This document shows positions 9,782 through 41,828 of a stretch of DNA of 64,000 bases, in pieces. The stretch's first letter is position 1; each line of letters starts with the position of its first letter. The position numbers and the translations under genes are program-made. The DNA is from an uncultured Acidimicrobiia bacterium (GTDB lineage: Bacteria; Actinomycetota; Acidimicrobiia; IMCC26256; JAENVU01): positions 798,693 to 862,692 of the forward strand of contig CAWFYL010000007.1 in the NCBI GenBank assembly GCA_963820025.1, written 5' to 3'. Under the pieces are notes generated by a model, which saw nothing but the letters and a program-made list of their open reading frames with translations, did no database searches and was not told the DNA's origin.

Positions 9782-11821
9782 CCGGCTCGTCGACTCCGGG
9801 TCCGGCTCCGTCGGACGCGGCGGTCACGTCGGCGAGGAACGCGTGGACGACCGCGGGGTCCACGACCCTGCGCATCGGCGGGAGCGCGTCGAGCAGCGTG
9901 TCGCGGTAGCCCGCGGTGGCGAGCCGGCGGTCGAGGACCGCGACGACGCCCCGGTCGTGCCGGCTGCGGATCAGCCGGCCCGCGCCCTGCGCGAGCACGA
10001 GCGCCGCGGCCGGGAGGTCGACGTCGCGGAACCCCGAGCCGCCGGAGCGCTCCGCCGCCTCCCGCCGGGCCTGCGCGAGCGGGTCGTCGGGGCGATTGAA
10101 CGGGAGGCGGTCGATCACGACGAGCACGCAGCTCGGGCCGGGGACGTCGACCCCCATCCAGAAGCTGCGGGTCGCGACGAGGCAGGAGCGCTCGTCGGCG
10201 CCGAACTGCTGGAGGAGGGCCGAGCGCGAGCCCTCGCCCTGCACGAGGATCGGATGGTCGGCCTCGGCTCGCAGCACGAGGCTCAGCGCGGGTGACCGCG
10301 GCGCGTGAGGTGCACAGCACGAGGCCGCGACCGCCGGCCGCGGCCACCAGCTCACGCACCTCCCGGGCCGCCGCGTCCGCCCAGGCCGGGTCCCGGGGCT
10401 CGGGCAGGTGCTCGCGCGACGTAGAGCATCGCCTGCTCGCGGAAGTCGAACGGCGACTCGACCTCGAGGTCGTCGTAGCCGAAGCCCGGCCCGAACTCGT
10501 CGTCGGCGTCGCCGGCCGGGGCGTCGGGCCCGTCCGGGATCCGCACCGGCCCGAGCTCCGCGGTCGGGTCCAGCCCGACCCGCTGGGCGAACGGCGCGAA
10601 CCGGGGCCCTCCGCCGAGCGTCGCCGAGACGAGGACGACCGGGAGCCGGCGGAACAGGCGGTCGGCGAGCGCCTCGGCGACGCTGATCGGCGCGAGGTGC
10701 AGCACCGGTCCCTCGCGCCACGCCACCTCGTCGGCACGCGGGGCCTGCAGCCGGCGCAGCGCGTCGAGCCGCGAGGCGCCGAGCTGCGCGACCTGCGCGG
10801 CGCGCGGTGGCGTCCTCGGACGCGTCGATGGCCGCGTTCGCGGTCGCCAGGCGTTCTGCGGCGGAGCCGAGTGCAGCGGCGAGCGCACCGTCGGTCGGGT
10901 CGACGCGGCCGTCGAGCGCGTCGATCGCGCGCTCCAGCGCGTCGGCGGCCGCGGCGACGAGGTCCGTGTCGCCGCGGCCGACGCCGACGCTGCTCAGCCG
11001 CGACGCGAGCTGGCGGAGGCCGATGGCGCTGACGTCGAGCCCGAACGCGCCGGTGGCGACGTCCGGCAAGCGCGTGCGCCTCGTCGAACACGACGACGTC
11101 GTGCTCGGGCAGGACGTTGCCCGACGGACGCGAGGTGCGCGCAGTAGAGCGCGTGGTTGACGACGAGGACGTCGGCGGTCGTCGCCCGCTCGCGGGCCTT
11201 CTCGGCGAAGCAGGTCTCGCCGTCGCTGCACTTGCCCGCGCCGGGGCACTCGCGTGGCGCGCAGCTCGCGGCCCGACGCGACGCCGTCGGCGATGTCCAC
11301 GTCGGCGAGGTCGCCGGTGGCCGACGTCGGCGACGAACTCCTCGAGGCGTTCGAGGTCGCGGGCCAGGGTGGGGCCGGGGCGTTCGTCGAGCAGCGGCGG
11401 CACCGTCGAGCGCGACCCGGAGCTTCGCCCGGCACACGTACTGCGACCGGCCCTTCAGCAGCGCGGCGCGAGAACGGCACGCCGCCGTGCTCGCGCAGGT
11501 GGGGGAGGTCCTTGTGCCAGAGCTGGTCCTGGAGCGTGAGCGTCGCGGTCGAGACCACGACCTTCAGGCCGGAGGCGACCGCGGGGACGAGGTACGCGAG
11601 GCCCTTGCCCGAGCCGGTCGGCGCCTCGGCGACGAGGTGGTGGCCGGCGGCGATGCGCGGCCGCGACCGCGGCGGCGAGCCGGCAGCTGGCCCGGCCGGT
11701 CGTCGCCACCGAGCGCGGTCACCGCGGCCGCGAGGACCGACGGCGCGTCCGGAACCCCGGTTCTTGGGGCTGGATGTGGCTCGTGGGGCTGCTGTGTGCC
11801 TCTGTCATCCGCGTCGCTCAC
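9711..11821 (-). pseudogene. dinG: ATP-dependent DinG/XPD-family helicase; conserved blocks spread over all three frames (11 frame changes)
   Basis: The blocks follow each other in successive frames: RPGQ, then IAAGHHLVAEAPTGSGKGLAYLVPA, VVVSTATLTLQDQLW, AALLKGRSQYVCRAKL, CPGAGKCSDGETCFAEKARERATTADVLVVNHAL, VVVFDEAHAL, VLVSATLGGG and ILVQGEGSRSALLQQF...SFWMGVDVPG. Length is 3n+2. Start (GTG 11821) and end are uncertain. Confidence 0.8.
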
Positions 11822-14962: not shown

Positions 14963-15780
14963 TGCTGCGGCTCATCCGCACCGAGCTGACCAAGCAGGTG
15001 CTGCGGCCACGGACGTGGGTCGCGCTCGGCTTCCTCGTGATCGTGCCCGTCATCATCGCGGTCGCCCTGAAGCTGAACCCGCCGGACCTCTCGGGCGACG
15101 GGCAGGGTCCGCGGTACTTCTACCTGGCCACCCAGAGCGGGCTCTTCCTGCCCGTGGCCGCGCTCCGGGTCATGAGCGGCTTCTTCCTGGTCGTCGTGAT
15201 CTGCATGTTCGCCGGCGACGCGGTCGCGAGCGAGGCGGGCTGGGGCAACCTGCGCTACCTGCTGATGCGGCCCGTCGGCCGGGGACGGCTGCTCACCGCC
15301 AAGCTCTTCGTCGCCGCAGTGTTCGCCGTCCTCGCGACGGCCCTCGTCGCGCTCTCCGGGCTGGTCGCCGGGGTCATCGCGTTCGGCTGGCACTCGATCA
15401 CGATCCCGTTCATCGGGCTGTCGCAGTCGCCGAGCGAGATCCTCGGCCACCTCGGCCTGGCCACGCTCCTCATCACCTGGGGGCTCGCCGGGATCATCGC
15501 CTTCGCGTTCATGCTCTCGACGATGACGGACTCCGCCGCGGGCGCGATCTTCGGCGCGGTCGGGCTCTACATCGTCTCGTTGATCCTCAACGAGATCACC
15601 TCGCTCGGCTCGATCCGCTACGGACTGCCGGTCCACTACTACGACTCGTGGTGCGACCTGTTCGTCCGCAACACCTTCACCGACGACATGTGGCGCAGCG
15701 TGCTGTTGCAGATCCCGTACGTCATCGTGTTCTGCGCCATCGCGTGGTGGTGGTTCCACCGCAAAGACATCAAGTCGTAG
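14962..15780 (+). CDS. ABC-2 type transporter permease
   Basis: In-frame ATG at 14962 inside ORF 14275..15780. Six hydrophobic segments. Translationally coupled to the ATPase through an ATGA overlap. Confidence 0.8.
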   Translation: MLRLIRTELTKQVLRPRTWVALGFLVIVPVIIAVALKLNPPDLSGDGQGPRYFYLATQSGLFLPVAALRVMSGFFLVVVICMFAGDAVASEAGWGNLRYLLMRPVGRGRLLTAKLFVAAVFAVLATALVALSGLVAGVIAFGWHSITIPFIGLSQSPSEILGHLGLATLLITWGLAGIIAFAFMLSTMTDSAAGAIFGAVGLYIVSLILNEITSLGSIRYGLPVHYYDSWCDLFVRNTFTDDMWRSVLLQIPYVIVFCAIAWWWFHRKDIKS

Positions 15781-15784
15781 TTGC

Positions 15785-16075
15785 TCTGAGCGACCCTGGC
15801 GGGTTGTTGCGGCGGGCGGGAAGCATCGGCACGAACCTGCCCTGCGCCACGCGCGGTTGCGGTCGCTCAGGTGACTCGGGTGGTGCCCGAGCCCCGAGGG
15901 TCAGTCGGGTGGCGGGAAGCATCGGCACGAACCTGCCCTGCGCCACGCGTGGTTGCGGTCGCTCAGGTGACTCGGGTGGTGCCCGAGCCCCGAGGGTCAG
16001 TCGGGTGGCGGGAAGCATCGGCACGAACCTGCCCTGCGCCACGCGCGGTTGCGGTCGCTCAGGTGACTCGGGATC
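15785..16075 (+). repeat. repeat family A, locus 1: tandem 96-bp unit x about 2.7 copies
   Basis: Units start at 15816, 15912 and 16008 (GCGGGAAGCATCGGCACGAACCTGCCCTGCGCCACGCGCGGTTGCGGTCGCTCAGGTGACTCGGGTGGTGCCCGAG...). The copies differ by one substitution. CTGAGCGACC at 15787-15796 is the inverse of GGTCGCTCAG within the unit. Confidence 0.9.
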
Positions 16076-16536
16076 GGACCCGGCCTGCGCTCAACTCTGG
16101 GGCGGGCGGCGAGGTAGGCCTTGACCATGGTGGCGAACTCGCCGACGTTGTAGATGTCCTCTTCGTAGGACCACTGGTCGTCGCCCGCGTACTTCAGCAG
16201 CGACCAGTTGATCGCCTGGTGCTGCCGGCCGTCGCCGATGTCCTGCATACGGTTCCAGACCGCGCACACGACCCAGCCGCGATCCTCGTCGATCACCCAC
16301 CAGTCGGCCGGGAACTCCGTCATCTCGTGGTTCGGGTACTCGGCCATCGTCGTGCTGATCCACCGCCGGATCGCCTCGCGGCCGCGGAACGTCCCGTAGA
16401 GGTGCTCGACGTACTCGGCGTCCTCGGTGAAGAGGTCGGCCCACGCGTCCCACTGGCCGGACGCGCCGGCTTCGGCCGCGGTGGCCCGGTAGTGCGCGTA
16501 CGCCCGCTCGATCTCGTCCCGCGTGAATTTCCCCAT
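15997..16536 (-). CDS. SnoaL-like / NTF2-fold protein; C-terminal ~25 codons and the stop lie inside repeat A
   Basis: MGKFTRDEIERAYAHYRATAAEAG...WWVIDEDRGWVVCAVWNRM is typical of the SnoaL_2/NTF2 superfamily. ATG at 16536 is preceded by GGGAAGAGG, which is contributed by repeat B. Confidence 0.75.
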   Translation of the reverse strand: MGKFTRDEIERAYAHYRATAAEAGASGQWDAWADLFTEDAEYVEHLYGTFRGREAIRRWISTTMAEYPNHEMTEFPADWWVIDEDRGWVVCAVWNRMQDIGDGRQHQAINWSLLKYAGDDQWSYEEDIYNVGEFATMVKAYLAARPRVERRPGPIPSHLSDRNRAWRRAGSCRCFPPPD

Positions 16537-16547
16537 GAGGACACCTC

Positions 16548-16731
16548 TTCCCAAGATCTCCGGAGGGCGATCACCCGGGCACGGTTCGGCTCGGTGCCCT
16601 CCGGCGGCTTTTTCCCAAGATCTCCGGAGGGCGATCACCCGGGCACGGTTCGGCTCGGTGCCCTCCGGCGGCTTTTTCCCAAGATCTCCGGAGGGCGATC
16701 ACCCGGCACGGTTCGGCACGGCGCCCTCCGG
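16548..16731 (-). repeat. repeat family B, locus 1: 64-bp BIME-like unit x 3
   Basis: TTCCCAAGATCT occurs at 16548, 16612 and 16676. Arms CCGGAGGGC and GCCCTCCGG alternate (16560, 16596, 16624, 16660, 16688, 16723). Confidence 0.9.
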
Positions 16732-16754
16732 TGGCTCGAACGTGTACGTGAACC

Positions 16755-17589
16755 CTAGCGACGGAACGCGGCGCGGCCGTCGAGCGTACGGACCTCGCGG
16801 CCGAGCTCCTCGAGCACCTCGGCGCTCGTGGCGCGCCGCCCGGTCATGCGGGCCGGATCCACGCTGCACAACGCGAGGGCGGCCTCGGCCATCTGCTCGA
16901 TCGGCTCGACGTGGCCCGGCTCGTCGGGCATGAGCCCCATCGCGATCACCCCCGGGGTCGCGACCGCCGCACACCGGTGCGACCGCGTTGACCGCGACGC
17001 CGCCCGCGAACACCTCGGCCGCGAGCCCCGTCGTCAGTCGCTCGAGCGCGGCCTTGCTCGTGCCGTAGAGCGTGGCGCCGTTGTCCGCGTGAAAGGGGGT
17101 GAACGGCGGGCCCTCGGGATGGGCCGACACGCCGGAGGAGATGTTGACGATCGCGCCGCGCCCGCGTTGCAGCATGCCGGGGAGGACGGCCCGGCTCAGG
17201 TCCCAGGGCGCATGGACGTTCACCTCGAACATCACCGCGTACCGGCGAGGGCTCACCCGATCCCAGGGCAGGTAGAAGCACGCGGCCGCGTTGTTCACCA
17301 GGACGTCGACGGCGCCGAGCGCGCCGCGTGCGTCCTCGATGATCGCGGCCCGGTCCACTGCGGGGTCCGACAGGTCGGCGACGACGATGTGGGCCCGGCC
17401 GCCGTCGGCCTCGATCCGGTCCGCGGTCTCCCGGAGCGACCCCGGGTTCGCGTCGGCGTCGGGCTCGGCGGTCCGGCCGACGAGCGCGACCGCGGCACCC
17501 GCGGCGGCGAGGCGCCGGGCGATGGCCGCGCCGATCCCACGGCTCGCCCCGGTGACGACCGCGGTGCGCCCGTCCAGCTCCTCGGTCAT
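16755..17589 (-). pseudogene. SDR family oxidoreductase; single frameshift near 16950-16975
   Basis: MTEELDGRTAVVTGASRGIGAAIA...NNAA...YGTSKAAL lies in ORF 16699..18168. The C-terminal IAMGLMPDEPGHVEPIEQMAEAALALC lies in ORF 16755..16949. Length is 3n+1. Confidence 0.8.
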
Positions 17590-23186: not shown

Positions 23187-24001
23187 CGCTCGCGCCGGGC
23201 CCGCTTCTGGCGGGCCGGGTCGCCCTGGTGACCGGAGGCGGCGGCGGGATCGGCCGCGGGATCGCGGAGGGGTTCGCGGCCCACGGCGCGCGGGTGGTCG
23301 TCGCCGAGATCAACCCCGAGCGGGCCGAGGAGACCGTCGCCGCGATCACCGCGGCGGGCGGCGACGCGATGGGCGAGATCGTGGACGTCGGCGACGAGGC
23401 CGCGGTCACCGACCTCGCGTTGGCGGTCGGACCGGTGGACGTCCTCGTCAACAACGTCGGTCACTACCTGCCCGGGAACGGCGACTTCCTCACCAGCACC
23501 TCGGACGAGTGGCGCGCGCTGTACCGCGTCAACCTCGAGCACGTGTTCCTCTGCACGCGCGCGTTCGTCCCCGGGATGGTCGAGCGCAAGCGGGGGAGCG
23601 TGATCAACGTGTCGAGCGTCGAGGCGTTCCGCGCGATTCCGCGCCGGCCCGTCTACAGCGCGTTCAAGGGGGCCGTCACCCAGTTCACGAAGAGCCTCGC
23701 GGTGGAGCTCGGCAACGACGGCGTGCGGGTGAACGCGATCGCGCCCGATCTCACCGAGACGATCCAGGTGCCGTACTCCCGCTGGGTCACCGCCGAGCAA
23801 CGCCCGCTGATCCCACACTGGGTGCCCGTCGGCCGCTTCGGCACCCCCGACGACATCGCCGGCGTCGCGCTGTTCCTCGCATCCGACCTCTCGGCGTTCG
23901 TGACCGGCACCACCGTCCATGCCGACGGCGGCAGTCTCGCCGCCGGCGGCTGGTTCCGCCGCCCCGACGGCACCTGGACCAACCGGCCCACAATTTCCTG
24001 A
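23183..24001 (+). CDS. SDR family oxidoreductase
   Basis: VALVTGGGGGIGRGIA, NNVG and YSAFKGAV. GTG 23183 overlaps the pepF stop (GTGA). Confidence 0.85.
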   Translation: MTLAPGPLLAGRVALVTGGGGGIGRGIAEGFAAHGARVVVAEINPERAEETVAAITAAGGDAMGEIVDVGDEAAVTDLALAVGPVDVLVNNVGHYLPGNGDFLTSTSDEWRALYRVNLEHVFLCTRAFVPGMVERKRGSVINVSSVEAFRAIPRRPVYSAFKGAVTQFTKSLAVELGNDGVRVNAIAPDLTETIQVPYSRWVTAEQRPLIPHWVPVGRFGTPDDIAGVALFLASDLSAFVTGTTVHADGGSLAAGGWFRRPDGTWTNRPTIS

Positions 24002-24037
24002 GCGTCCGGACTCGCGACGACTCCGGCCGCTCAGGAA

Positions 24038-28146: not shown

Positions 28147-28635
28147 ATGGCGATCTACGACGTCAAGGTGAACCAGCTCGACGGCACCACGGCCTCCCTC
28201 GGTGACTACAAGGGCAAGGCGCTGCTCATCGTGAACGTCGCCTCCCACTGCGGGCTCACCCCGCAGTACGAGGGCCTCGAGAAGCTGCACGAGACGCTCG
28301 GAGACCGCGGCTTCGAGGTCCTCGGGTTCCCGTGCAACCAGTTCCTCGAGCAGGAGCCGGGCACGGCCGAGGAGATCCGGGAGTTCTGCACCGTCAACTA
28401 CGGGGTGGAGTTCCCGCTGTTCGAGAAGATCGAGGTCAACGGCGAGGGCCAGCACCCGCTGTACCAGCAGCTGAACGCGGTGGCCGACGCCGAGGGCTAC
28501 ACCGGCGACATCCGGTGGAACTTCGAGAAGTTCCTGGTCTCGCCCGCCGGCGAGGTCGTCGGCCGGTTCAACCCGACCGTGACCCCCGAGGACCCGGCCC
28601 TGGTCTCCGCCATCGAAGCCCAGCTCCCGAGCTAG
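28147..28635 (+). CDS. glutathione peroxidase family protein
   Basis: LIVNVASHCGLTPQY, GFPCNQF and WNFEKFLV are GPx signatures. Confidence 0.95.
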   Translation: MAIYDVKVNQLDGTTASLGDYKGKALLIVNVASHCGLTPQYEGLEKLHETLGDRGFEVLGFPCNQFLEQEPGTAEEIREFCTVNYGVEFPLFEKIEVNGEGQHPLYQQLNAVADAEGYTGDIRWNFEKFLVSPAGEVVGRFNPTVTPEDPALVSAIEAQLPS

Positions 28636-28640
28636 CCAAG

Positions 28641-28708
28641 CCGAGCGGCCGCAACGGTGCTCGCGGCAGGCAGGTCAATGCCGATGCTTCCCGCCGCAGC
28701 CCGGGGCC
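28641..28708 (-). repeat. repeat family A, solitary copy
   Basis: CCGAGCGGCCGCAAC...GCCGATGCTTCCCGCC...CCGGGGCC aligns with the unit at 60967-61218 in the same orientation. It starts 6 nt after the gpx stop. Confidence 0.7.
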
Positions 28709-28774
28709 AGGGCCGCTCAGGAGAGAAAAGCCGGGTACCCTGGTCGGGAATAGGAGGGCAGAGGCGCCGGTTCA

Positions 28775-32889: not shown

Positions 32890-32898
32890 AGAGAACCG

Positions 32899-33024
32899 CC
32901 GGAGGCCGCCAGTCGATCGCGGTCCGGCGATCGGCCTCCGGAGATCTTGGGAAGAAGGGCCGCCGGAGGCGCGCCAGTTGGTTGCGGTCCGGTGGTCGCG
33001 CTCCGGGGAACCTCAGGAAGGAGG
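32899..33024 (+). repeat. repeat family B, locus 2: one good plus one degenerate unit
   Basis: CCGGAGGCC (32899), GGCCTCCGG (32933), AGATCTTGGGAAG (32942), CCGGAGGC (32963). The second unit is degenerate (GCTCCGGGGAACCTCAGGAAGG). Confidence 0.8.
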
Positions 33025-39435: not shown

Positions 39436-40536
39436 GTGGAGACCCTGCGGGACGTCGCCCTCTGCGTCGCCGGTGTCGCCCTCGTGGCCATCGTGCTCGA
39501 TTCCGCGCTCCGCACGTTCGTGCTGCCACGGGGCGTGTTCGTGCGCTCGACCAGGTTCATCAGCATCGTCGTGCGCAGGATGTTCGACGTGCCCACGCGG
39601 CTGGCCCGGACCTACGAGGCCCGGGACCGGGCGATGGCGCTGTACGGGCCGGTCTCGATGTTCGTGCTCGTCATCGTGTGGATGGTGCTCGTCCTGGTCG
39701 GCTTCACGATGATCTTCGTCGGGGTCGAGCAGGTCGCCTGGAAGGAGGCGTTCATCCAGAGCGGCTCCTCGATGCTCACCCTCGGGTTCGAGCGCCCGTT
39801 CGGCTTCGGTGCCGCGACCATCGGCTTCGCCGAGGCGGCGATCGGCCTCGGCCTCCTCGCGCTGCTGATCGCCTACCTGCCGACGATCTACGCCGCGTTC
39901 TCGCGCCGGGAGGTGCTCGTCGCGCACATGGCGGCACGCGCCGGGACCCCTCCGAGCGCGGTGGACCTCCTGCGGCGGGCCCATCTCATCGGCCGCCTCG
40001 ACGATCTCGACGACGTCTGGGTGGAGTGGCAGCTGTGGTTCGCCGAGGTCCAGGAGACCCACACGTCGCTCGGGTTCGTCAACTTCTTCCGGTCGCCCGA
40101 GCCCCAGCGCTCGTGGATCACCGCCGCCGGTGCGGTGCTCGACGCCGCGGCGCTGGTCAACTCGACGATCGACCAGCCGAGCCAGCCGATGGCGAGCCTC
40201 TGCGTCCGGTCCGGGTTCACCGCGCTGCGGGCGATCGCGCGCTTCTTCCGGATCCCGCACCCCGACGACCCCGCGCCCGACGACCCGATCAGCATCAGCC
40301 GGGACGAGTGGGAGGACGCGTGCCGCGAGCTGGAGCTGGTCGGCGTGCCGATCAAGGCGGACCGGGACCAGGCGTGGCGGGACTTCGCGGGGTGGCGGGT
40401 GAACTACGACGTCCCGCTCATCACCCTCGCGGGCCTCCTCGTCGCTCCCTACGCGCCGTGGTCATCGGACCGGTCGATCCCGTTCAAGGTGCGGATCATC
40501 CGGCGGGAGGACCGCCCGGGTCGCCGCGAGGACTGA
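39436..40536 (+). CDS. membrane protein with degenerate two-TM pore-like region plus ~200-aa soluble domain; function unknown
   Basis: GTG start 7 nt after the arfB stop. TM helices flank SSMLTLGFERPFG, reminiscent of but not matching a K+ channel TxGYG filter. Confidence 0.7.
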   Translation: METLRDVALCVAGVALVAIVLDSALRTFVLPRGVFVRSTRFISIVVRRMFDVPTRLARTYEARDRAMALYGPVSMFVLVIVWMVLVLVGFTMIFVGVEQVAWKEAFIQSGSSMLTLGFERPFGFGAATIGFAEAAIGLGLLALLIAYLPTIYAAFSRREVLVAHMAARAGTPPSAVDLLRRAHLIGRLDDLDDVWVEWQLWFAEVQETHTSLGFVNFFRSPEPQRSWITAAGAVLDAAALVNSTIDQPSQPMASLCVRSGFTALRAIARFFRIPHPDDPAPDDPISISRDEWEDACRELELVGVPIKADRDQAWRDFAGWRVNYDVPLITLAGLLVAPYAPWSSDRSIPFKVRIIRREDRPGRRED

Positions 40537-40543
40537 GCGCCGC

Positions 40544-41828
40544 TCAGCGGTCCGGGCCGGGGACCGGCGCGAGCTCGGGCGCGAGCCCGGCCGACTCGGG
40601 TTCCGGGGTGCTCCCGGGGCGATGGCAGTCCACGATCCAGGCCAGGAAGCGCTCGACGGCGCGCACCGCGTTGGCCGTGCGGGTCGAGTGGAACACGTCG
40701 AACGCGTGCGAGGCGCCCGGCACCTCGGCGTAGAGCACGGGCTCGTCGGACACCGCTCGCAGCCGCTCGACGAACTGGCGGGCCTGGCTGACCGGCGCCA
40801 GGTTGTCGTTGGTCCCGTGGATGACGAAGAACGGCGGGGCGTCGGACCGGACGTGGCTCACCGGTGACGCGTCCGCGAACACCGCCGCGTCCTCGTCCGG
40901 GGTCGTCTTCATGACCCACCGACCGATGAGTCGTGCCGCGCGGTCCTTGGCCCGGTCGCCGGCGAAGATCGAGTCGAAGTCGTAGACGCCGTAGAAGGGG
41001 ATGCACGCGTCGACCGAGGTGTCCGCGTCCTCGAACCCGGGCTGGAGCCGTGGCTCGTTCGCAGTGAGCGCGACCATGGCCGCGAGGTGACCGCCCGCCG
41101 ACCCACCGGAGACGCAGATCAGATCCGGGTCGCCGCCGTACTCGGCGATGTGCTCGCGCACCCAGGCGAGCGCCCGCTTGCAGTCGACGAGGTGCTCGGG
41201 CCAGGTGGCCTTCGGGCTGAGCCGGTAGTTGGTCGCCACGCAGACCCAGCCCTCGCGCGGCGAGCTGCAACATCAGGGGGAGGCCCTGCTGGCTCTTGTC
41301 GCCGATGATCCAGGCGCCGCCGTGGATCTGGAGCAGCACCGGCGCGGGCGCGGCGTCGGGCCCGCGGTCCCGGCGCCGGTACACGTCGAGCTGGTTGCGC
41401 TTCCCGTGGGGCCCGTACTCGAGGTTCTTGACCCGCTCGACGCGACGGTCGCGCAGCAGGAAGGGGAACACGGCCTGGGTCCACTTCGCGGTGCTGGGGT
41501 CCGCGGGGCCGAGCCCCAGCCCGTCGGTCAGCACACTGTCGAACACGCCTCCCGACCGGCGCGAGATCGCGGCGATCACGACGAGGCCGACCCACGAGGC
41601 AACGCTGATCGCCAACCCGAGCCACCCGGGCCACCGGTCGAGCGCACCGAGGGCGACGAACAGCGCGGTCGCGACGGCCTGCCACACGATGTTCCAGACC
41701 GCGAGCTCGCCGGTCAACCAGGCGGCGAAGAAGCTCGTCCCGATGAACTGCCAGCGCGACGACGGGCGGAACGCGTTCACCGTGAACCAGGCGCCGACGA
41801 TGCTCACGGCGAGGAAGATCCAGGGCAC
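40544..41828 (-). pseudogene. membrane-anchored alpha/beta hydrolase (esterase/lipase, HSL-like); single frameshift near 41240-41250
   Basis: N-terminal 4 TM helices plus VLLQIHGGAWIIGD are in ORF 40449..42029. NYRLSP...VSGGSAGGHLAA (GxSxG)...HGTNDNL is in ORF 40544..41239. Length is 3n+1. Confidence 0.8.

What the first reader, a model, noticed from the sequence alone, without database searches (positions are those of the whole stretch)
15785..16075. Repeat family A, locus 1: 96-bp unit in tandem (about 2.7 copies) that swallows the 3' end of the SnoaL gene
The units at 15816, 15912 and 16008 differ by a single substitution (CGCGCGG versus CGCGTGG). The first ~55 nt (GGGAAGCATCGGCACGAACCTGCCCTGCGCCACGCGCGGTTGCGGTCGCTCAG) recur, inverted, at 60967-61218 and at 28641-28708, while the rest of the unit is locus-specific. 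Each unit carries a small hairpin (CTCGGG-tggtg-CCCGAG). An inverted partial core (CTGAGCGACC, 15787-15796) precedes the array. The array fills a convergent intergenic region and supplies the last ~25 codons and the stop of the SnoaL-like ORF. I do not recognise the element as any described REP, MITE or RNA family.
Basis: seen in the sequence. Interest (0 to 1): 0.6.

Follow-up and report, generated by a model that had tools for sequence, protein, structure and literature searches.

The report
Hairpin-ended intergenic repeat, tandemly amplified
The tandem array is real and is a local amplification of a small (about 85 bp) hairpin-ended repeat found in the gaps after genes in an uncultured soil actinobacterium and its relatives; this is an ordinary REP/MITE-like kind of bacterial repeat from an undescribed family, and its apparent fusion to the neighbouring gene is probably a one-base assembly error.

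Summary
A 96-bp unit is repeated 2.7 times at 15815-16072, with one substitution between copies, and its core recurs at 28641-28720 and 60962-61254.

The real unit is about 85 nt long. It is bounded by a 10-bp terminal inverted repeat (CTGAGCGGCC...GGCCGCTCAG) and carries a near-invariant central box (GCGGGAAGCA.C.GCAC) between two fast-evolving segments.

I found members at about 7 distinct intergenic sites in the window, a related MAG, metagenome contigs and syntenic contigs. They occur in both orientations and always abut or supply a stop codon, mostly between convergent genes. Orthologous sites differ between genomes: empty (3-nt gap), a 37-nt mini-palindrome, one copy, an inverted pair, or tandem arrays of 2-3 copies. 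This is the behaviour of a REP/MITE-like interspersed element whose arrays grow by local duplication.

There is no Rfam match. No internal RNA structure is conserved beyond the terminal stem. No target-site duplication and no transposase were seen.

The 33-codon SnoaL extension disappears if one G is added to a G4 run at 16099-16102. The assembly shows frequent indels, so the "swallowed gene end" is probably an artefact.

Verdict: a new member of a known kind, of modest interest.

The parts
15786..15870 (+). First complete family-A element (85 nt). Left arm CTGAGCGACC at 15786-15795; box GCGGGAAGCATCGGCACGAACCTGCC at 15816-15841; right arm GGTCGCTCAG at 15861-15870.
   Evidence: It aligns end to end with the single-copy orthologue L004:256-340. 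The arms carry a compensated G-C to A-T change.
15815..16072 (+). 96-bp x 2.7 tandem array. It repeats the right 55 nt of the element plus 41 further nt that contain the CTCGGG-TGGTG-CCCGAG hairpin.
   Evidence: TRF score 509. One substitution between units and array end at 16072. The orthologous site has one copy in L004 and none in L016, L017 and L020.
15997..16536 (-). SnoaL-like ORF as assembled (179 aa). The last ~33 codons lie beyond the normal end of the family; about 25 of them plus the stop are array sequence.
   Evidence: The probable true stop is TCA at 16091-16093, reached if the G4 run at 16099-16102 is really G5.
23998..24034 (-). 37-nt mini-palindrome that keeps only the family-A ends (CTGAGCGGCCGGAGTCG...CGCTCAG). 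It exactly fills the gap between two convergent genes.
   Evidence: It folds at -30 to -32 kcal/mol, z about -6. The same site holds one full copy in L019, an inverted pair in L018 and nothing in L016/L017. The SDR stop TGA (23999-24001) lies inside the arm.
28641..28720 (-). Single family-A element (80 nt). It starts 5 nt after the glutathione peroxidase stop (the stop ends at 28635) and ends 92 nt before the Lon start.
60962..61254 (-). 92-bp x 3.2 tandem array of whole family-A elements joined by a 7-nt linker CCTCTTC. It fills a convergent gap. The TGA stops of both flanking genes (60983-60985 for the CGNR zinc-finger gene; 61246-61248 for the GNAT-like gene) lie in element arms.
   Evidence: The orthologous arrays have 3 copies in L008 and at least 2 in L006.
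40533..40547 (.). 15-nt palindrome CTGAGCG-C-CGCTCAG made of the two 7-nt arm tips back to back, spanning two convergent TGA stops. It may be a footprint or a proto-site.
   Evidence: By my estimate, about 0.02 such juxtapositions are expected in the window from the 7-mer counts. Its membership in the family is inferred only.

Best explanation
The array is a recent, lineage-specific local amplification of one copy of a small non-coding interspersed repeat of the REP/MITE type. The family unit is about 85 nt long. It has 10-bp terminal inverted repeats (CTGAGCGGCC / GGCCGCTCAG), a nearly invariant central box (GCGGGAAGCA[T/A]C[G/C]GCAC) and two rapidly diverging segments between box and arms.

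Shown: copies have been gained and lost in the short gaps downstream of genes, mainly between convergent genes. They sit in either orientation. Their C-TGA-GCG termini often become the stop codon of the flanking gene.

Inferred: once present, a copy, or a copy plus a few flanking bases, is multiplied head to tail by slipped-strand or unequal recombination. This would give arrays with 92-96-bp periods whose copy number differs between related genomes. Spread to new sites by a trans-acting enzyme that recognises the arms and/or the box is also inferred. So is the main effect on the host, namely GC-rich hairpins at mRNA 3' ends and new stop codons.
For: Family structure: 16 non-identical copies align over their full length with conserved arms and box.

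Dispersal: there are about 7 distinct genomic sites across the window, MAG SMAG_U4828 (L003, L004), three JGI metagenome contigs (L006, L008, L013) and two syntenic contigs (L018, L019).

Presence/absence at the SnoaL|permease site: array in the window, one copy in L004 (90% nt identity), and a 3-nt gap in L016, L017 and L020.

Presence/absence at the DUF885|SDR site: empty in L016/L017, a 37-nt mini-palindrome in the window, one copy in L019, and two inverted copies in L018.

Orientation: both orientations occur relative to the upstream gene.

Position: every copy lies within 0-11 nt of a stop codon or contains it.

Copy number: it differs between orthologous arrays (window 3.2; L008 3; L003 2 where L013 shows 1 before the contig ends).

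Age: the near identity of the three locus-1 units (1 difference in 257 nt) against 84% identity to the orthologous single copy shows the amplification is recent and local.

Terminal stem: 88.8% of cells are paired and two pairs carry compensatory changes.
Against: No target-site duplication is visible at any single copy. No longer element or transposase with the same ends was found in the 288 kb in hand. I did not run protein-family scans on the window ORFs for a transposase.

Copies at different sites in one genome are only about 70-75% identical, so there is no sign of very recent transposition.

In orthologous copies the box and arms are much better conserved than the rest (207/225 against 146/199 identical, p = 2.5e-7). 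This hints at constraint in place rather than pure junk. However, most of those copies were found by a pattern that required the box.

The internal left arms of both window arrays are degenerate, so their inter-unit hairpins are weak.
Confidence: 0.65

Rival explanations
1. The element is a host-selected cis-acting gene-end signal. It would act as a bidirectional hairpin terminator or 3'-end mRNA stabiliser and/or a binding site for a lineage-specific protein that reads the invariant box. This would be analogous to the mycobacterial TRIT motif or to E. coli REP/BIME. Arrays would simply multiply the signal.
For: The position relative to stop codons is very narrow, and most copies lie between convergent genes. 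The arms form a 9-10-bp GC-rich stem with compensatory changes. Inter-unit hairpins in L008-type arrays fold at -20 kcal/mol and the mini-element at -30 kcal/mol. The box is identical in all 7 window units and conserved in orthologous copies while neighbouring positions diverge. TRIT is a precedent: a conserved palindromic repeat overlapping stop codons in an actinobacterium (PMC3152330).
Against: No U-tract or canonical terminator is present. The hairpin arms have decayed inside both window arrays. Related genomes manage with a 3-nt gap at the same sites. Term-seq in M. tuberculosis found that predicted TRITs coincide with very few real 3' ends (10.1101/2022.06.01.494293). The conservation of the box is partly an ascertainment effect of my search patterns.
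Confidence: 0.2
2. It is a structured non-coding RNA gene or riboswitch-like motif repeated in tandem.
For: Individual copies fold somewhat better than shuffles in the head-sense strand (z -2.6 to -2.9 for two copies).
Against: There is no Rfam hit at gathering score or at E<=1. RNAalifold keeps only the terminal stem and trivial 2-3-bp helices, with a covariation term of about 0. Other copies have z-scores between -0.1 and -1.3. Both orientations occur relative to flanking transcription. No promoter-like site was found.
Confidence: 0.05
3. The tandem structure at 15815-16072 is an assembly artefact of a long-read metagenome assembly.
For: The source is a Flye-style contig (ERZ25039533 contig_13793). 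The window differs from that record by 25 gaps in 20 kb. Several genes are frameshifted. The only available orthologue has a single copy.
Against: A 290-bp array is far shorter than a long read. Arrays of the same family occur in independent assemblies, including short-read JGI contigs (L008 with 3 copies, L003 with 2). The units carry a clean single substitution rather than indel noise.
Confidence: 0.05

Closest known systems
REP / BIME / REPIN elements of Proteobacteria
   Same: Both are short, GC-rich, hairpin-forming extragenic repeats lying just after stop codons. Both occur singly or in clusters and are polymorphic between related genomes. The 37-nt mini version at 23998-24034 looks like a single REP.
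   Different: The full unit is palindromic only at its 10-bp ends and has a non-palindromic 65-nt interior with a conserved box. There is no GTAG or CGTC tag. Clusters are head-to-tail direct repeats rather than alternating orientations (one inverted pair, in L018). No RAYT gene was seen. The host is an actinobacterium.
Bacterial MITEs (Correia/NEMIS of Neisseria, RUP of S. pneumoniae, ERIC)
   Same: Size is 80-150 bp with terminal inverted repeats and no coding capacity. Location is intergenic in either orientation, with presence/absence polymorphism. Element ends can supply signals to neighbouring genes.
   Different: No target-site duplication is detectable and no parent insertion sequence is known. 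Tandem head-to-tail arrays of whole units are unusual for MITEs.
MIRU (mycobacterial interspersed repetitive units) and BOX elements
   Same: These are direct tandem repeats of 45-100 bp in intergenic regions of an actinobacterium (MIRU), or modular repeats with a variable number of internal units (BOX). Copy number varies between strains, and the ends overlap codons of flanking genes.
   Different: MIRUs sit between co-directional genes of operons and couple small ORFs to the downstream start codon (PMC12548453). Here 5 of 7 sites are convergent and orientation is not tied to the genes. Sequence similarity to MIRU was not tested.
TRIT (Tuberculosis Rho-independent terminator motif; Gardner et al. 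2011, PMC3152330)
   Same: It is a conserved palindromic repeat in a high-GC actinobacterium. It is tightly positioned at, and often overlapping, stop codons, and is bidirectional by symmetry.
   Different: TRIT is a single hairpin reported only in Mycobacterium. The present element has a long non-palindromic interior, forms arrays and occurs in a different class. Terminator activity is unproven for both.

Membership tests
REP/REPIN (RAYT-associated) | A 20-40-nt imperfect palindrome as the basic unit | tested here: not met
   The full unit is 85 nt with only 9-10 terminal pairs. Only the 37-nt derivative at 23998-24034 is a REP-like palindrome.
REP/REPIN (RAYT-associated) | A conserved GTAG or CGTC tag at one end | tested here: not met
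   All aligned copies begin CTGAGCG and end CGCTCAG.
REP/REPIN (RAYT-associated) | A cognate RAYT (Y1 transposase) gene in the genome, usually flanked by REPs | not testable with these tools
No protein-family scan for a transposase was run on the window ORFs.
MITE | Terminal inverted repeats | tested here: met
   The 10-bp arms are paired in 88.8% of cells across 16 copies.
MITE | Small size (50-500 bp) without coding capacity | tested here: met
   The unit is 80-87 nt. No frame is conserved between copies, and the 92-nt period is not a multiple of 3.
MITE | Target-site duplication flanking each copy | tested here: not met
   Flanks of the single copies (window 28641-28720, L004, L019, L018b) share no direct repeat. 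Decay of old duplications cannot be excluded.
MITE | Insertion polymorphism at orthologous sites | tested here: met
   Two sites show empty and filled states across syntenic contigs.
MITE | An autonomous insertion sequence with the same ends | tested here: inconclusive
   No arm pair spaced 0.6-3 kb apart was found in the 288 kb in hand. No hit in plasmids or phages. A whole-genome search was not possible.
MIRU-type minisatellite | Direct tandem repeats of 46-101 bp in intergenic regions with variable copy number | tested here: met
   Periods are 92-96 bp and copy numbers run from 1 to 3.2 at orthologous loci.
MIRU-type minisatellite | Location within operons, oriented with the genes, with an internal ORF coupled to the downstream start | tested here: not met
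   Five of 7 sites are convergent and orientation varies.
Any Rfam RNA family | A covariance-model match | tested here: not met
   There were 0 matches at gathering score over the window and 0 at E<=1 over 15700-16800.
TRIT | A palindromic motif positioned at or over the stop codon | tested here: met
   The stop TGA lies inside the arm for the CGNR, GNAT-like and SDR genes of the window and for the GNAT gene of L013.
TRIT | Sequence and structure match to the TRIT model, reported as restricted to Mycobacterium | not tested
   I had no TRIT model or sequence. The paper reports restriction to Mycobacterium.

The most novel reading that the evidence does not exclude
The element may not be mere selfish DNA. 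It could be a lineage-specific gene-end module whose invariant 17-26-nt box is read by a dedicated protein or RNA partner, for example a termination, RNA-processing or nucleoid factor. The hairpin arms would position it over convergent stop codons, and array length would tune the effect. This would be a new factor-dependent 3'-end signal in uncultured Actinomycetota.
Probability: 0.15. Interest if true: 0.55.

Novelty: new member of a known kind. Interest (0 to 1): 0.3.

Why it matters
Three practical points follow.

- **Annotation.** The element explains several odd gene ends and "extended" ORFs in long-read MAGs of this soil lineage. Repeat-borne C-terminal extensions should be checked against homopolymer indels before they are believed.
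- **Strain typing and element dynamics.** The family, and a second hairpin family in the same window, offers copy-number markers. It is also a tractable case of gain, loss, miniaturisation and tandem growth of a REP/MITE-like element outside the Proteobacteria.
- **Possible function.** The in-place conservation of the central box is the one feature that could point to a real function at gene ends.

Tried and rejected
- **Rfam.** Nothing matched at gathering score (whole window) or at E<=1 (15700-16800).
- **Promoter and terminator scan.** Nothing was found.
- **BLAST of array units.** The plasmid search gave only a chance 41-nt hit and the phage search gave none.
- **Pattern scans of public collections.**
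  - The genome scan gave two true loci (L003, L004) and two chance hits inside the rnpA start region (L001, L002).
  - The metagenome scan gave three true loci (L006, L008, L013) and seven chance hits in coding sequence.
  - The viral scan gave one chance hit in a coding region.
- **Iterated nhmmer.** It found no further diverged full copies in the window or loci.
- **Consensus folding.** No conserved internal helices were found. Candidate pairings between the variable segments were inconsistent between copies.
- **Sister-assembly check.** I tried to fetch locus 1 from the sister assembly via the permease protein. There was no exact product on record.
- **Search for a longer element.** No element with the same ends was found.
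- **Literature.** Searches found no description of this family. One 'TRIT' hit was the word Triton.

Full report
**Observation**

Tandem Repeats Finder reports a 96-bp unit in 2.7 copies at 15815-16072, with 98% matches and score 509. Units 1 and 2 differ by a single C/T at 15854/15950. The third copy is identical to unit 1 up to 16072.

The 53-nt core occurs three times with at most 1 mismatch, against none in 100 shuffles. Its 16-nt head, GCGGGAAGCATCGGCA, is exact in seven copies at three loci: 15816/15912/16008 on the plus strand, and 61035/61127/61219 and 28694 on the minus strand.

The array lies between the stop of an ABC-2 permease gene and a SnoaL-like gene on the opposite strand.

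**What the unit really is**

Related sequences changed the picture. A pattern scan of species-representative genomes found the orthologous locus in MAG 'Acidimicrobiia bacterium SMAG_U4828' (L004), which is 90% identical to the window over 7.8 kb. Between the same permease and SnoaL genes there is exactly one element: CTGAGCGGCC, 65 nt, GGCCGCTCAG.

Further copies came from several sources:
- the same MAG (L003, two tandem copies);
- three JGI metagenome contigs (L006, L008, L013);
- syntenic contigs fetched through SnoaL homologues (L018 with three copies, L019 with one).

Sixteen non-identical copies align end to end. Each has five parts:
- a 10-bp left arm;
- about 20 variable nt;
- a box, GCGGGAAGCA(T/A)C(G/C)GCAC, followed by (C/G)(A/G)A;
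- about 20 variable nt;
- a 10-bp right arm complementary to the left one.

At window locus 2, and in L003 and L008, the tandem unit is the whole element plus a 7-nt pyrimidine linker (CCTCYYC), giving a 92-93-bp period. At locus 1 the repeated 96 bp are the right 55 nt plus 41 further nt. MAFFT aligns those 41 nt weakly with a degenerate left half.

**Structure**

Only the terminal stem is conserved. Across the 16 copies, 88.8% of cells in the ten pairs are paired. Two pairs carry compensated changes: G-C to A-U in the window locus-1 copy and in L018b, and C-G to U-A in L008a. The covariation score exceeded all but 1 of 500 shuffles.

RNAalifold adds only 2-4-bp helices, with a covariation term near zero. 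Single-copy folds give z-scores from -0.1 to -2.9, and their interiors differ from copy to copy.

Rfam has no match at gathering score over the window or at E<=1 over 15700-16800. No sigma-70-like promoter or U-tract terminator is present.

In well-preserved arrays (L008 type), the right arm of one unit and the left arm of the next form a 10-bp stem with a 7-nt loop (-20 kcal/mol, z -4.6). In the window's locus 2 this hairpin has decayed to -6 kcal/mol, and at locus 1 it is absent.

**Genomic behaviour**

All sites are gene-end gaps. Five of seven distinct sites lie between convergent genes and two follow a gene in a co-directional pair. None lies in a divergent promoter region.

Orientation relative to the upstream gene varies.

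The arm tip reads C-TGA-GCG, and that TGA is often the stop codon of the flanking gene:
- the CGNR zinc-finger gene (60983-60985);
- the GNAT-like gene (61246-61248);
- the SDR gene at 23999-24001;
- the GNAT gene of L013.

Elsewhere the element starts 3-11 nt after the stop.

Orthologous sites differ between genomes.
- **SnoaL|permease gap.** It is 3 nt in L016, L017 and L020 (82-88% identity to the window). It holds one element in L004 and the array in the window.
- **DUF885|SDR gap.** It is 3-4 nt in L016 and L017. L019 has one full copy and L018 has two copies in inverted orientation. The window has a 37-nt palindrome at 23998-24034 that keeps only the element's ends, exactly fills the gap and folds at -30 kcal/mol. 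L020 and L019 carry solo right arms at this site next to unrelated palindromes.

A 15-nt palindrome made of the two arm tips, CTGAGCG-C-CGCTCAG, spans another pair of convergent stops at 40533-40547.

Copy number differs between orthologous arrays: 3.2 in the window, 3 in L008 and at least 2 in L006. L003 has 2 copies where L013 shows 1 before its contig ends.

**Interpretation**

The following features together are the signature of the small interspersed palindromic repeats known as REP, MITE, ERIC, BOX or MIRU in other bacteria:
- dispersal to many gene-end gaps;
- both orientations;
- terminal inverted repeats;
- presence/absence and miniaturised derivatives at orthologous sites;
- lineage-specific copy-number change.

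I therefore read locus 1 as one insertion, shared with SMAG_U4828, that was recently amplified in the window's lineage by slippage or unequal exchange. The three units differ at 1 of 257 positions. The first element is only 84% identical to its orthologue.

What is shown is the family, its architecture, its site preference and its turnover. What is inferred is the means of spread. I saw no target-site duplication. I found no longer element with the same ends in the 288 kb available. Nothing related turned up in plasmid or phage collections. Copies at different sites of one genome are only about 70-75% identical, so any transposition is not recent.

**A feature that resists the junk reading**

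Between orthologous copies the box is 119/125 identical and the arms 88/100, but the variable segments only 146/199 (Fisher p = 2.5e-7). Most of those copies were retrieved with a pattern that required 19 box positions, so the contrast is inflated. The one pair found through synteny plus an HMM (L018a/L019) shows the same trend: box 22/25 against variable 26/39.

This leaves room for a host-level role. The nearest precedent is TRIT, a conserved palindromic repeat with 147 copies that overlaps stop codons in Mycobacterium and was proposed to need an extra factor (PMC3152330). However, Term-seq later found that predicted TRITs coincide with few real 3' ends (10.1101/2022.06.01.494293). MIRUs are the other actinobacterial parallel, but they couple to start codons inside operons (PMC12548453), which is not the pattern here.

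**The swallowed gene end**

As assembled, the SnoaL ORF (15997-16536, 179 aa) runs 33 codons past the point where its relatives end. Four lines of evidence point to an error:
- The 120 best homologues listed are mostly 147-157 aa (the closest 147-152 aa) and cover about 82% of the query.
- The L004 orthologue ends MVKAYLAARPQA*.
- Inserting one base in the run at 16099-16102 (G4 on the plus strand) turns the window protein into MVKAYLAARPQS*, with the stop at 16091-16093.
- The assembly is indel-prone. The window is 99.6% identical, with 25 gap openings in 20 kb, to ENA ERZ25039533 contig_13793. Its ABC ATPase (around 14250), an SDR (around 16950) and the CGNR gene (around 60790) are visibly frameshifted; I read these from the ORF translations.

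The fusion is therefore most probably a homopolymer error, or at most a very recent frameshift. It is not a property of the element. Genuine overlap with gene ends does occur in this family, but it is limited to the stop codon and one to three preceding codons.

**Assembly artefact?**

The tandem structure itself is unlikely to be an artefact. Arrays of the same family occur in independent assemblies, including short-read ones (L003, L008). A 290-bp array is also trivially spanned by long reads. Only read mapping can confirm the exact count of 2.7.

**Verdict**

This is a real and correctly observed repeat. It belongs to an undescribed family of a well-known kind of element, in an uncultured soil actinobacterial lineage labelled Acidimicrobiia in the MAG record. 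Interest is modest. The in-place conservation of the central box is the one thread worth following.

Noticed in passing
window 16548-16736, 59279-59458, 32894-32954: A second hairpin repeat family ('B') is present. It forms a 64-bp x 3 array between the SDR and SnoaL genes, a 61-bp x 3 array, and a single copy. All share TTCC.AAGATCTCCGG followed by a stem whose two sides differ between loci in a compensated way (CCGGAGGGC/GCCCTCCGG versus CCGGCGGCCG/CGGCCGCCGG). Weak copies occur in L016, L017 and L020. The SDR-SnoaL gap is only 33 nt in L016. Both family-B arrays lie within 0.5-1.5 kb of a family-A array.
   Followed up: partly
window ~14250, ~16950, ~60790; L015 versus window 18153-38626: Several genes are split by frameshifts: an ABC ATPase, the SDR upstream of SnoaL, and the CGNR zinc-finger gene. 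The window differs from the ENA contig of the same genome by 25 gap openings in 20 kb; for example, Lon is intact in the window but split in L015. This points to long-read indel noise, so frame-dependent claims in this window need caution.
   Followed up: partly
L018 1713-3755: The DUF885 gene is called as 680 aa instead of 565 aa because its frame reads through two inverted family-A elements. This is another repeat-borne C-terminal extension that may be an indel artefact.
   Followed up: no
L019 2650-2700; L020 2745-2815; L018 10455-10530: Unrelated GC-rich palindromes occupy the same convergent gaps in relatives, for example GCGTTCGTGCG...CGCACGAACGC and GTTTGTCCGAT...ATCGGACAAAC. These gaps appear to collect several hairpin element families.
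   Followed up: no
L016 ~10448-10460, L017 ~10450-10462, L020 ~10450-10462: The empty SnoaL|permease sites read CTGA(T/C)GCTCAG. In L017 and L020 this contains the full 7-nt arm tip CGCTCAG next to CTGA, like a collapsed arm pair. It could be coincidence from two convergent TGA stops, a preferred target, or a footprint.
   Followed up: no
L001 619-644, L002 4398-4423: The 22 specified bases of the box pattern also match the start of rnpA (MLPAA...), just downstream of rpmH, in two actinobacterial MAGs. The arms are absent there, so I judged it a chance match in coding sequence.
   Followed up: yes
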